Below are positions 47,691 to 60,169 of a stretch of DNA of 64,000 nucleotides, piece by piece. The stretch covers positions 1,561,518 through 1,625,517 of the forward strand of contig MU053810.1 in assembly GCA_013239625.1 (NCBI GenBank), written 5' to 3'. The translations under genes were made by a program, and so were the position numbers. The first letter of the stretch is position 1. Every line of letters begins with the position of its first letter. The notes beneath the pieces are model-generated. The model did not search any database and was not told the DNA's origin. It saw nothing but the letters and a program-made list of their open reading frames with translations. The DNA is from Lama guanicoe (lineage: Eukaryota).

Positions 47691-50291
47691 GTGGGGAATC
47701 TGGATTTTGTCTTCAAGTCTTGAAGCTGCTTTGATTTGTCCTCTCAGGTAAGAAGGCAGAGAGAAAATGAGAAAGGGGAATCAAAGTTGAGAAGCAGACT
47801 TCCTATGCAGACAGCTCCTCCAGTATTTTGTCTATCCCACACCCTGTACCAGGACCCCAGGGGCTAGCGTGATGTTACTGGCCTAGCAGACATCGTGGAA
47901 AGTACCATACTGTGTCTTGTGTTGTAAAAATAGGAAAGGTAAGGCTAAAATTAATAGCAGGCAATTAACCTCCAATGATAACATCTAGTTTAAAGAAACC
48001 AAGAGTTTTTGTGAAATTGTGCTGAAGATTTTAATGAAGACTACTTCTTTGAAGATTTAGGTATATTTTTTCTGATCTACATTATGAAGAGCCTACAAAC
48101 CTCTGGTTGGAGCCTTTCTCTTTCTGTGATTTTAAAAAGAACTTTAAAAAATGTTTCTAGGACTGTGTATCTAGGACTGTTTAATCCACTGACTGCATTG
48201 TATTTTCTATGTTTCTTATCTAGATTGGCATTCTAATAAGGACCCTGTATAGATTTTCCATTCTTCCTGCATGATTAGTTGTATGAGGTTAGCCAGACCC
48301 CTAGCGCAAGTCGAAAGCACATCTCTAAAGTTAACCTCTGTCATGCGATGAGGCCAAATCTGGTTGTTACAAAACTTTATTGCTTACTTTTGTTGGAAGC
48401 TGCCTCATATATTTTTGGTAATGAGGCAGGATACCTAAATAAAGCAAATAAAATTGCTTTATGTAGCTTTGCTTAGAATCATACATCTTAGAGCCTGACA
48501 CATACTCAGGAAAAGCTGTCTGCTTTTGCAGGTAAGATATTTTCATTTTCATTTAAACTATAGGGTAACTAAAGCACAGAGAGTTTTTATAAATTACACT
48601 ACAGCAAACCTAACAGAAAGAATTCCACCCCAGCTCTCCTGAATCCTTGTACCGTTTCATTACTTAATTCTACCTGGTCCTATTGTTGTGGCTCCAAAGA
48701 GACTGTCTGTAATCCATTCATTCATTCAGTCAACAAACATTTACTGAGCACTGTTAAATGGCCTGTGGGGGCAATGTCTTTAAAAAGAAACATTTTGTGT
48801 AGCAAGGATAACAGTACGGGTTAGAAGGAGTTATCGAACATTTTCTGTGTAAGAATGTTGGGCGGGGACCATGATCAACTCTTCCTGTAACTGAGTTTTT
48901 CCCCAGCCTTATGACAATTCTGTGAATTGAGCACAGTGCTACATTTTTTCTGGCTCTTGATTCCTCTCTGCAAAAGTTTTGGCTAGTTTCCATCTCCATG
49001 ATTCTTTTAAGCTCTAATATTCTATAGGCCATGGGATAGTCTAGATTGATGACATCATGGTAGTGTTTCTGTCTAGGCTGTGTCCATGAAGGCAGTAAGC
49101 AGTGGCAGATCTTTTAAATTCACAGTGAAATCAACGAATATTCCCTCTAGAAGAATAATTAGCAGCTTCCTGAGTTGAAAGGGAGACACTTTAGACCACG
49201 TGCCTGTGACCAGTAGTGGTAGTTTTAACAGTTCTAAGTAACTGGTTTAATGGTATTCTAAGCTGCATTAAATACACTTTGGCTTCTCGGAATGTTCTTG
49301 TATTGAGGGGAACATCATAGCTATAATTAAATCTCTGCTCTCTTAGCCCTTTTTGAACCCATATCCTGCCAGATATAAAGCCTGTCAATTCATATCTTTT
49401 GGTGATGGTTACCTAGAAGAGGGCCGTTCTTGGTCAGAAACTGAATTTCCCGTACTTGTGGAACACGTTCCCCTGCTGACCTCCTGAAATGAAAGACTAG
49501 GAGTCATGATTAAATCTAATTTTTCCTCCTGTAGTAGCAGGTTGAGCTGGGTCATCAAGGCCAGTCCCTGCAGATGGCTTTAAAATACCTTTGTGATTTG
49601 ATCTCCTTGCCTCCCCAGTTTCTCTAAGTGCCCATCACCGTCATCCTTTACCACCCTGACAAGATTCCAAGGAGAGAACAGCACAAATGAACAAGAGCCT
49701 TTGTGATGCCTCCTGAGGGCATTGCTTATTAAATGCGCTTGGCAATGACCCAAGTCTGACTTGTGAGCTACAAGGCAGGTTAGCACATTTGCGCGAAGAT
49801 GAGTCCATGTATTATTTAACCCACTCAGATACGTTGTTGTCGCTCTGCTGCCCAGCATAACCCACGTGAAAAAATATAAACTCACAGGTTAACGATGGCT
49901 GGTTTGTATCTTCACACGTGCTGGGAATCACTTGGTTTCATGGCTTTGTTTGGACTGTAGCTTGTTTTCTCAGAACGAGTAAAGCATGTTTATGAAGTGT
50001 GTGTGTGGCTAGCGGGGAAGGAGGGGAATACAAATGCCTTGCTTTCAGGCTTCACATCTATTTTGGGGACATTAACCACTGTCACAACTTACGGCGGGTC
50101 CTACAATTACATCCTACCCGGAGATGTTCATACCAAGTCAAGTATTGCAGTGAAACGGATTTCACTGTTACGCATTCGTTTCCTCTTTTCACGACTGGCA
50201 GAATATTTTTCTGCTCTATTAGAAAGCATGTGAATGATGCGTAAGTGGTAATTAATTCTTCTTCTTCTTCTTCTTTTTTTTTTCTAAACAG

Positions 50292-50503
50292 ATTGGCACT
50301 ATCATGTTGCTCAGGCCTTCCCACAAACAGAAGAGGAGGTGGACGTGGACTCACATGCATTCAGCCACCGGTGGAAAAGGAACCTGGATTCCCTCAAGGC
50401 GGTAGACTCAAACCGAGCCAGCATGGGCCAAGACTCCCCAGAGCCCAGAGGCTTCACGGACCTGCTCCTGGACGATGGGCAGGACAACACCACCCAGATT
50501 GAG
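50292..50503 (+). CDS. PLXDC2: PLXDC2 (plexin domain-containing 2) coding exon 2, copy 1
   Basis: Polypyrimidine tract plus cag acceptor, and gtcagt donor; 212 bp, phase 1 to 0. Translates (D)[70 protein letters not shown], matching remembered human PLXDC2 [45 protein letters not shown]. Confidence 0.96.
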
Positions 50504-57700: not shown

Positions 57701-60169
57701 TCCGGTGGTCCCTGGCTGCCCCAGGCTGGCCCCTTAACAGGCAACAGAGGATGTACCAGGAGCAGAAGTCATTTAATATCTGTAAGAGGCTGCTCTGACT
57801 CCTGCAGGGTGCCTGCTATTTTGGCAACAATGTTGTTATAGCAACTCTGAGTAGGCAACATAATTCTTCCCTGAGCTTCCCTTTAGCGAGGGTGCAGGGT
57901 AAAGAAAGGAGAGCTGAACAGAGCAGAGGTGTTTACTCTCTGCCCAGAACTAGTAACCTATTGAGATTAAAGGGAGAGAACACAGACTCCTAGAACTCTG
58001 TGATCTCCATGTAGGATGCTGAATTTTTCTAATCATTTGTAAAATAGAAAATTCTTTTGCTCAGCGATATATTCACACCTCTCAGAGTACAGTCCTAGTT
58101 GTTATGAGGGCTATGATTTTGTTATTCAGCTGATTTTTTTCTCTCTTTCTACCTTAACAGTGGGAGACCACATAATGTCAGTGATTTTGAATCAATAAAA
58201 AAGAGGATGGATGGGCAGGGAGCTATTTGTTAGCTTCTCCCTTAGTGCTAAGATCTGCCAGGTCCATACAGATATCATCTGACCACGTCCTCACCTCAGC
58301 CTGCTGAGAATTGCATCCCCAAGTTCACTGGCTAATCTCAGTGACTTACATGAGGGTACTTTCAGACTTAGGTTTAGTATTTTTCCTCAAGTCTCTTATC
58401 AATGAGTAAAGGAGCTGGTATTCAAACCTAGGCCTGTCCAAGTCTCAAGATTTAGCCTTACTCCTTGACTTTTCTTCTCTAATATAAGGAAAAATAAATG
58501 GCCATTTGATTATGTAGTGATTTTGGATGGTTGTGGCACCTGAATATTGGTAGAGTAACATTGAGGTTTCAGCCTGGCTGGAAGGGAACTTGTCTTGAAG
58601 CTTGATTTCATAACAAGAGGACTGCTTTGAAGTTTATTTTGATGGGTTTTGGGGATGGATGGAGACTGTTGGGGATCTGAAGTCCCATAGGTCACCTGTT
58701 GGTACCACCACCAGTTCTGGAATCAAAAGCCTACATCTGAAATTTCTCTGCAAATCTTATTTATCCTGTCCCTTAAAATAGTATTTCTGAACTCTGTTGC
58801 CTCTCTTTTGGGAAAATACTTTTGCCTGATTGAGTTAAATGGGAATAAGCAAGAAAAGAACCCAAATGGTTATGGTCACTGCTCTGTGCTGGGTTTTGTG
58901 GCAAGATCTTTCTTATCCTTTAGGAATAAGCATTTTGATTTGTTGCTTCATATAAGTAATGAGCATGAAAACCGTGTGCTTCTTCCTTTTAGAAGCTTCC
59001 AGAATCGATGTCAGGAATCGGAATGATTTGGCGTGCGAGGCCATATCCCAGAATGGCATTCCGGGGCATGTTCTCAGCTCCTGCCGTTGTCTAGACTTGA
59101 CCTCCCACTTTCACTAGACAGAGACAAAACCGAAAGACAGTAGCATATTTCCTATTCTGACACAAATGCGTTCTGAAATAAACAAAGGCTGCTGTTCTCG
59201 TAACTTGGTGACAGTATTTTTTCTGGCTCTGCACGAGAACAGATAATGTGGGGATTGCAAAACTACTGTCCCAGTTAAAGAATTCTTCCATCTGAGGTTT
59301 TGTTGTCATTGTCAGTGTTTTTTCTCTTTTTCATATTCTTTTCATGAAGAGAGAAAGACGACTTGAAACCATTTGTATTCCCTGATAAAGAAGCCGACTC
59401 GGCAGTTGGCAGGTGCCACTGTTGATCTGCTGTTGGTTTACCAGAGACCTTTCTTCTTGTATCTCCTCTGTTCATGTGGACGTCTAACCACTCTGCCGAG
59501 TCAGAAGACTTTCTTCTGATTAGTAGGTGTTACAAGCAGTCACTAGTGTGCTACTTTTCGCAATTGAATATAGAGGACTTTCAGGTAAAGCTGAATTCTG
59601 TTCATGACTGAGCCTTGTTTGAGCAGCTGTCAGTGAATCCCATGGCCCCCAGGACACACGCATGGATGAGCAGCACGTGTGTCATCACCTCGCTGCTGAC
59701 AGCCGTTTCGCCTGCTGCGGGGGAGCTCCTGCAGGGTCAGGGGTGCCTGATGGGAATGGCAAGGCCTGAGCAGTGTTTGGTGAGAATCACCAATCTCCAT
59801 AAAGCTCAGTTTCATCAGTTTATTCCTGTATAAAGTTATTGGTAACTTACAGTTCTTAGCTGTACAGAAATCAATCACAGATTTCTTTCAAACCCTCTAA
59901 ACCAAATATGTGGGTTTTTTTTTTTAAACACTTATTCTCATGAAGCATTTGGAATTTCATATCCCTCTCTTGGGACAATGAAAATGTTTCTGAAAAGGAT
60001 TGTCAGGTGTGATTTTTTTTGGATGACTGAAGAAGGGAAGATAAAAAAAAGTAGGTTTTATGGATCATGTAAGTGTAGCTCCATGACCCAAACTGACTCA
60101 GACTTTGTGAGCTGGGTGAGTGCGTCTCTGGTGATGCCAATGTGGCTAAGCCACAGGCCACACTTTGAG
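54718..60169. repeat. 5,452-bp tandem duplication, copy 2
   Basis: Near-identical to 49266-54717. By eye only two substitutions in the first ~4.87 kb (50174A/55626G and 51968A/57420G). Confidence 0.97.
55744..55955 (+). CDS. PLXDC2: PLXDC2 coding exon 2, copy 2
   Basis: Identical by eye to 50292-50503, with intact AG/GT splice sites. Confidence 0.93.

What the first reader, a model, noticed from the sequence alone, without database searches (positions are those of the whole stretch)
49266..60169. Recent intragenic tandem duplication of PLXDC2 exon 2 that is frame-disrupting if both copies are spliced in
Seen in sequence: two identical 212-bp exons with intact splice sites. Because 212 is not a multiple of 3, joining copy 1 to copy 2 reads [37 protein letters not shown] then TAG at 55855-55857, 98 nt before the next junction. 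That predicts nonsense-mediated decay. Inference: a loss-of-function or hypomorphic allele, or mutually exclusive use of the two copies. The clean junction with 1-bp microhomology and the few substitutions fit a real recent event, but a false duplication of two haplotypes in the assembly is not excluded. PLXDC2 is a cell-surface receptor (PEDF; also reported as a rhesus rhadinovirus entry receptor).
Basis: partly seen in the sequence, partly recalled or inferred. Interest (0 to 1): 0.7.

Follow-up and report, generated by a model that had tools for sequence, protein, structure and literature searches.

The report
Camelid PLXDC2 exon-2 tandem duplication
A camelid genome carries a very young 5.5-kb side-by-side copy of one exon of the cell-surface receptor gene PLXDC2, which would break the gene's reading frame; this is a familiar kind of gene-damaging variant in a gene that mice can live without, and it is not yet confirmed in raw reads.

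Summary
49266-54717 and 54718-60169 are head-to-tail copies (period 5,452 bp, 10 mismatches, no gaps). Each carries an identical 212-nt PLXDC2 exon (aa 38-108, 100% identical to the Camelus ferus protein). Joining both gives TAG at 55855-55857, 98 nt before the next junction.

Eight of the ten mismatches lie in the resulting three-copy segment, whose middle copy is a clean mosaic of the other two (gene conversion, template switching or mixed haplotypes). The other two mismatches are CpG transitions, so they are biological variants, not read errors. The 1-bp microhomology is uninformative (46% by chance). I found no structural basis for mutually exclusive splicing.

Best reading (0.60): a real, recent duplication like the DMD exon-2 duplication, giving a null or hypomorphic allele through nonsense-mediated decay. 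Rivals: two haplotypes falsely joined in the assembly (0.28); a real duplication rescued by skipping or an in-frame acceptor at +23 (0.12). I have no read or RNA evidence at the junction. Plxdc2-knockout mice are viable. The scan had not noted this locus elsewhere. Known kind; low interest.

The parts
49266..54717 (+). Copy 1 of the 5,452-bp tandem unit (end of PLXDC2 intron 1, exon 2, start of intron 2)
50292..50503 (+). PLXDC2 exon 2, copy 1 (212 nt; aa 38-108; phase 1 in, phase 0 out)
   Evidence: the exon number is inferred from its position and recalled from the human gene
54135..54717 (+). S1: partial (583-bp) third copy of the 640-bp unit, ending at the junction; holds 8 of the 10 differences between the large copies (54137-54473)
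54717..54718 (.). Head-to-tail junction: 1-bp microhomology (G), no inserted bases, no gap; an 8-bp direct repeat lies on either side, 10 bp apart
54718..60169 (+). Copy 2 of the 5,452-bp tandem unit
55744..55955 (+). PLXDC2 exon 2, copy 2, identical to copy 1
55765..55766 (+). First AG inside exon copy 2 (+23): the nearest acceptor that would restore the frame after copy 1 (189 nt, 63 codons, open); weaker pyrimidine tract (11/18 against 15/18)
   Evidence: its use is not shown
55855..55857 (+). Premature TAG reached if both copies are spliced in (about c.436; 145-aa product; 98 nt upstream of the next junction)
59587..60226 (+). First unit (640 bp) of a second, older tandem duplication; a mosaic that equals S3 over columns 3-339 and S1 over columns 442-556; the large duplication ends inside it at 60169
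60227..60872 (+). Second unit (646 bp) of the small tandem duplication (S3); 3-bp AAA microhomology at its ends; 12 substitutions in 583 aligned bases against S1 (2.1%)
50174..50174 (+). CpG transition between the copies (A here, G at 55626)
51968..51968 (+). CpG transition between the copies (A here, G at 57420)

Best explanation
A real and very recent head-to-tail duplication of 5,452 bp in camelid PLXDC2, made by a non-homologous or microhomology-type repair or replication event. Its right breakpoint fell inside an older 640-bp tandem repeat. The first 640-bp unit of copy 2 took about 340-440 bp from its neighbour, either by gene conversion or by template switching during the event, or it was inherited in that form from a second haplotype. 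Both exon copies have full splice signals and lie 5.2 kb apart, so the spliceosome most likely includes both by default. The frame then shifts, translation stops at 55855-55857, and the mRNA is removed by nonsense-mediated decay. The allele is null or hypomorphic; occasional single-copy transcripts give normal protein. It persists because loss of PLXDC2 is mild or recessive. Shown: the structure, the frame, the stop and the mosaic. Inferred: existence in the animal's DNA, the mutational route, double inclusion, decay and tolerance.
For: [quoted passage not shown] No alignment gaps between the copies over 5,453 bp, and 4 of 5 homopolymer runs of 7 or more are identical; this suggests an accurate consensus (inference). 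Both differences outside the three-copy segment are CG>CA changes, with chance about 1.3e-4 for random substitutions, so they are biological. Only 2 differences in 4,869 bp is fewer than two random haplotypes would give at my trial heterozygosities of 0.2-0.3% (P = 0.003 and 0.0001). The mosaic has one clean switch, 8 S1-only columns and then 6 S3-only columns (p about 0.001), as a conversion tract would. The same anatomy in human DMD exon-2 duplication causes disease and is corrected by skipping one copy (PMC13638376, section 7.3, first of 2 parts). Homozygous Plxdc2 knock-in mice were viable with no obvious abnormality (PMC3024984, passages).
Against: No read, contig or RNA was seen across the junction. 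The run search cannot decide it: the best runs hold 0.85-0.91 of the sampled words, and the junction is only 30 of 5,452 distinct 31-mers. Two differences in 4,869 bp is compatible with two haplotypes at a heterozygosity of 1.0e-3, a figure quoted for a Bactrian camel (PMC4201309, passages; P(<=2) = 0.14). The 1-bp microhomology has no weight. The cluster of differences beside a paralogous repeat is the kind of site where assemblers keep haplotypes apart (PMC9516828). Double inclusion and decay are inferred, not measured.
Confidence: 0.6

Rival explanations
1. False (heterotype) duplication. The assembler joined the end of one haplotype (copy 1, unconverted 640-bp unit) to an overlapping start of the other haplotype (copy 2, converted unit). 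The animal has one exon 2 per chromosome and an intact gene.
For: The two CpG transitions could be ordinary heterozygous SNPs (P(<=2) = 0.14 at heterozygosity 1.0e-3). The junction has only chance-level microhomology. The differences cluster at a paralogous repeat, and false duplications favour boundaries of raised heterozygosity; in VGP long-read assemblies 61-92% of them lie on the same scaffold (PMC9516828, passages).
Against: No gap or N between the copies, whereas gaps are the usual mark. An 11.6-kb structure would be spanned by ordinary long reads (inference; the sequencing technology is unknown to me). The copies show no sign of read errors, which argues against the error-driven (homotype) form.
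Confidence: 0.28
2. The duplication is real but mostly harmless. One copy is usually skipped, so the identical pair acts as a newborn, frameshift-enforced mutually exclusive pair; or copy 2 is entered at the +23 AG, which adds 63 in-frame residues (a repeat of aa 46-108 with a second RWKR site) to a still working receptor.
For: In 377 of 629 human MXE clusters (60%), joint inclusion shifts the frame (10.1101/133215, passages). The +23 AG gives an open 189-nt exon. RWKR is present in 90 of 92 homologues; if it is a convertase site (recalled motif, not tested), a cut at the second copy would leave a normal mature end.
Against: The copies are 5,240 nt apart, far beyond the <50-bp steric limit, and have identical splice sites. 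The strongest inverted matches between the unit and its flanks are AT microsatellites; the best other match has E = 0.93 (12 of 19 matches printed), so no docking/selector pair of the PMC6071210 type (abstract) is evident. The +23 acceptor has a weaker tract and lies behind a strong AG. None of 120 PLXDC2 proteins in hand repeats an exon-2 motif. The DMD precedent is a disease allele until skipping is forced.
Confidence: 0.12

Closest known systems
Human DMD exon 2 duplication (PMC13638376, passages and section 7.3 part 1 of 2)
   Same: Tandem duplication of a single second exon in a large gene; the copies are indistinguishable to the spliceosome; removing one copy gives a wild-type transcript.
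   Different: DMD is essential and the allele causes disease; double skipping is rescued there by an exon-5 IRES. No such rescue is known for PLXDC2 (not tested), whose knockout is viable in mice, and the existence of this allele is unconfirmed.
Intragenic exonic tandem duplications giving loss-of-function alleles, e.g. EDAR exons 6-8, 9.2 kb, 3-bp microhomology (PMC10899794, passages)
   Same: Kilobase-scale head-to-tail duplication with breakpoints in long introns, little microhomology, predicted to break the frame.
   Different: Here one exon only, 1-bp microhomology, a breakpoint inside an older 640-bp tandem repeat with a mosaic unit, and no phenotype or segregation data.
Mutually exclusive exons born by tandem duplication (PMC6071210, abstract; 10.1101/133215, passages)
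   Same: Two adjacent homologous exons of equal length whose joint inclusion shifts the frame.
   Different: The copies are identical, so they offer no protein diversity; there is no steric, U2/U12 or evident RNA-structure constraint; no repeat is seen in 120 proteins of other mammals and camels.
Heterotype false duplication in genome assemblies (PMC9516828, passages)
   Same: Adjacent near-identical copies on one scaffold, differing at SNP-like sites next to a locally divergent stretch.
   Different: No assembly gap between the copies; depth and read-pair criteria could not be examined.

Membership tests
Out-of-frame intragenic single-exon tandem duplication (DMD dup2 type) | Head-to-tail copy inside one gene that includes a whole exon with both splice sites | tested here: met
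Out-of-frame intragenic single-exon tandem duplication (DMD dup2 type) | Joint inclusion shifts the frame and gives a premature stop more than 50-55 nt before a downstream junction (rule recalled) | tested here: met
   212 nt; TAG at 55855-55857, 98 nt before the junction
Out-of-frame intragenic single-exon tandem duplication (DMD dup2 type) | The junction exists in the animal's DNA | tested here: inconclusive
   Word shares of 0.85-0.91 cannot resolve a junction worth 0.55% of the words; a metagenome scan for the unit's end found 0 matches; no reads were seen
Out-of-frame intragenic single-exon tandem duplication (DMD dup2 type) | Both copies are spliced into mRNA, which is then degraded | not tested
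   No RNA data were examined; needs RNA from a carrier
Mutually exclusive exon pair | Homologous neighbouring exons of like length and frame; joint inclusion is frameshifting | tested here: met
Mutually exclusive exon pair | A constraint against joining: donor-to-branch distance under 50 bp, U2/U12 mismatch, or competing RNA pairings | tested here: not met
   5,240-nt spacing; identical GT-AG sites; inverted matches are AT microsatellites or have E >= 0.93 (simple BLAST scan, short or bulged pairings could be missed)
Mutually exclusive exon pair | Junction reads that bridge each copy separately | not testable with these tools
   The copies are identical, so mature mRNA reads cannot tell them apart
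False duplication (Ko et al., PMC9516828) | Assembly gap between the copies | tested here: not met
   0 N in the window; a hidden depth gap is not excluded
False duplication (Ko et al., PMC9516828) | Half read depth and discordant or absent junction reads | not tested
   No read-level data were obtained for the locus
False duplication (Ko et al., PMC9516828) | Differences that are heterozygous alleles (heterotype) or read errors (homotype) | tested here: inconclusive
   An error origin is unlikely (two CpG transitions, p about 1.3e-4); a heterozygous origin is compatible at 1.0e-3 (P = 0.14)

The most novel reading that the evidence does not exclude
The duplication is real, common or fixed in a camelid lineage, and is a mutually exclusive exon pair caught at birth: two still identical exons kept apart only by frameshift and decay, or rescued by the +23 acceptor into a receptor with a doubled RWKR-bearing N-terminal segment. 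It would be a natural system for watching how single inclusion evolves after tandem exon duplication.
Probability: 0.06. Interest if true: 0.6.

Novelty: new member of a known kind. Interest (0 to 1): 0.22.

Why it matters
If real, it is a natural loss-of-function or hypomorphic allele of a PEDF receptor (PMC4303762, passages) in a livestock family. It can be typed with one junction PCR, and it would mislead read mapping and gene models at this locus. If false, it flags an assembly error that should be fixed. The link to rhesus rhadinovirus entry is real for human and macaque PLXDC2 (PMC7959344, passages), but nothing here connects it to camelids. The nested, mosaic 640-bp repeat is a neat local example of conversion or template switching. 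None of this opens new biology unless RNA shows efficient single-copy inclusion.

Tried and rejected
No whole genome is held for this window, so assembly-wide rates of such duplications could not be measured. No reads or contigs were laid on the locus, which leaves junction support, depth and the allele state of the 640-bp unit in other animals open.

The run search found 14 of 24 listed runs holding at least half of 559 sampled words (0.85-0.91; 4 organism labels, 6 studies). This shows that the unit is real DNA in other samples. It says nothing on copy number, because junction words are 0.55% and junction plus copy-1-only words are 3.9% of the total. The RNA runs held 0.17-0.29 and were not examined.

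Null searches: a 28-base pattern from the end of the unit gave 0 matches in JGI metagenomes (uninformative). The exon peptide has no PDB hit and no Pfam hit. Rfam gave 0 families in 49200-64000. The scan's earlier notes gave nothing near this place, no look-alike stretch in other genomes and no mention of PLXDC2.

Rejected as evidence: the 1-bp microhomology (46% by chance). Given no weight: the 8-bp direct repeat flanking the junction (0.4% of random joins), because I chose the 20-nt window after seeing it in a wider scan and the join does not use it. Rejected: NAHR between long repeats, since the longest shared word within 50 bp of the two breakpoints is 8 bp. The extra length of the C. ferus model P0001 is not an exon-2 repeat; it lies around aa 262-324. 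One search stopped on a script error after its first two lines; the rest was rerun.

Literature: 'PLXDC2' + 'duplication' + 'exon 2' gave 5 papers, none on this topic by title or abstract start. 'PLXDC2', 'copy number', 'camel', 'alpaca' (at least 2 terms) listed 20 of 7,550 papers, all 20 with 0 mentions of PLXDC2. Of the South American camelid CNV preprint (10.1101/2025.08.28.672513) I read part 1 of 2; its supplementary CNV table, which I could not see, may bear on whether this variant is already recorded. PMC6598621 (passages) and the search gave no alpaca heterozygosity figure.
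Full report
Observation. A self-comparison of the window gives one long ungapped match, 49265-54717 against 54717-60169, at 99.82% identity with 10 mismatches. The period is 5,452 bp and the junction lies at 54717/54718, with one shared base and nothing inserted. Each copy holds an identical 212-nt exon (50292-50503 and 55744-55955) with a strong pyrimidine tract and the donor GAG|GTCAGT. 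The window has no N.

Gene and organism. The exon peptide found 92 proteins among 131 candidates; those with a gene name are nearly all PLXDC2. The best is Camelus ferus XP_032329454.1 at 100% identity. The exon covers aa 38-108, entering in phase 1 and leaving in phase 0, and no other PLXDC2 exon is in the window. A C. bactrianus model lacks one glutamate of the EEE run that the window has. I therefore call the source a camelid and go no further. The label 'exon 2' follows from the position and from my recall of the human gene.

Consequence. Splicing copy 1 to copy 2 adds 37 foreign residues and stops at TAG 55855-55857, 98 nt before the next junction. The product would be 145 aa, with the stop at about c.436. 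By the recalled 50-55-nt rule this is a target for nonsense-mediated decay. Skipping both copies also shifts the frame (phase 1 to phase 0), so only single inclusion gives normal protein. The nearest in-frame escape is an AG at +23 of copy 2, which gives an open 189-nt exon, but its tract is weaker (11/18 pyrimidines against 15/18) and it lies behind a strong AG.

A second tandem duplication, 59587-60226 and 60227-60872, overlaps the right breakpoint. It has a 3-bp AAA microhomology (6% of random joins reach 3 bp). Its first 583 bp are therefore present three times: S1 (54135-54717), S2 (59587-60169) and S3 (60227-60811). Eight of the ten differences between the large copies fall in S1, at 54137-54473. 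Counting the homopolymer pair once, that is 7 events in 583 bp against 2 in 4,869 bp (Fisher p = 4.6e-6). In the three-way alignment S2 is never the odd one: it equals S3 at 8 columns (3-339) and S1 at 6 columns (442-556), a single clean switch (p about 0.001). S1 and S3 differ by 2.1%. The small repeat is thus the older one, and S2 is a mosaic. Gene conversion, template switching during the event, or a converted haplotype would all produce this (inference).

Real or artefact. [quoted passage not shown] That last point excludes an error-driven copy but not a join of two haplotypes. Two differences in 4,869 bp would be rare at my trial heterozygosities of 0.2-0.3% (P = 0.003 and 0.0001), but are compatible with 1.0e-3, a value quoted for a Bactrian camel (PMC4201309, passages; P = 0.14). 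For an artefact: the 1-bp microhomology is met or exceeded by 46% of 20,000 random joins, and false duplications favour boundaries of raised heterozygosity; 61-92% of them lay on the same scaffold in VGP assemblies. Public runs hold the unit: 14 of 24 listed runs have 0.85-0.91 of 559 sampled words, from 6 studies. But the junction is 30 of 5,452 distinct 31-mers, so these shares cannot decide. I saw no reads or contigs across the junction, and a metagenome scan found nothing. I put the odds that the duplication exists in the animal at about 0.7.

Mechanism if real. The breakpoints share no long homology (longest common word 8 bp within 50 bp), so NAHR is out and a non-homologous or microhomology-type route is likely, as proposed for human intragenic duplications such as EDAR exons 6-8 (PMC10899794, passages). 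The copies are 5,240 nt apart with identical splice sites. Of 19 inverted matches between the unit and its surroundings, the 12 best were printed; they are AT microsatellites or have E >= 0.93. None of the known constraints on joining (spacing under 50 bp, U2/U12 mismatch, competing pairings; 10.1101/133215, passages; PMC6071210, abstract) is evident. Frameshift-enforced exclusion does exist: 377 of 629 human MXE clusters would shift frame if joined. For identical copies, however, it only means that double-inclusion transcripts are wasted. None of the 120 PLXDC2 proteins in hand repeats an exon-2 motif, though gene models would hide an out-of-frame copy. The closest precedent is the DMD exon-2 duplication, a disease allele corrected by skipping one copy (PMC13638376, passages and section 7.3 part 1 of 2). 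I therefore expect default double inclusion, decay, and a null or hypomorphic allele.

Why it can persist. Mice with exon 1 replaced by GFP had ten-fold less transcript and were homozygous viable without obvious morphological or behavioural abnormality (PMC3024984, passages).

Novelty. Two literature searches and four look-ups in the scan's own notes found no report of this variant; an unseen supplementary CNV table for South American camelids (10.1101/2025.08.28.672513, part 1 of 2 read) might list it. The kind is well known. Verdict: observation confirmed and extended; best reading a real, recent, frame-breaking duplication (0.60); assembly artefact 0.28; real but rescued 0.12; a new member of a known kind; interest 0.22.

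Noticed in passing
window 18713-19225, - strand: Intronless, decayed RAB23 copy (170-aa stop-to-stop frame, E = 1.4e-72 to human-like Rab-23 in the PDB, with internal deletions and no start codon), antisense within PLXDC2 intron 1; most likely a processed pseudogene.
   Followed up: partly
   Followed up: yes
window 54708-54733: An 8-bp direct repeat sits on both sides of the junction, 10 bp apart (0.4% of random joins, post hoc window); the join does not use it. Unexplained, possibly chance.
   Followed up: partly
window 10537-10611: Perfect 39-bp tandem duplication (1.9 copies, 100% match) in intron 1.
   Followed up: no
window 50372-50383 and 55824-55835 (exon 2, aa 64-67): RWKR, a dibasic motif like a proprotein-convertase site (recalled), is present in 90 of 92 homologues; cleavage was not checked beyond one paper with no mention of furin.
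   Followed up: partly
P0001 (Camelus ferus model), about aa 262-324: The model replaces a conserved stretch with unrelated sequence, making it 558 aa; probably a gene-model or assembly problem in that record.
   Followed up: no
P0100 (Camelus bactrianus model), aa 52-54: One glutamate of the EEE run in exon 2 is missing relative to the window and C. ferus.
   Followed up: no
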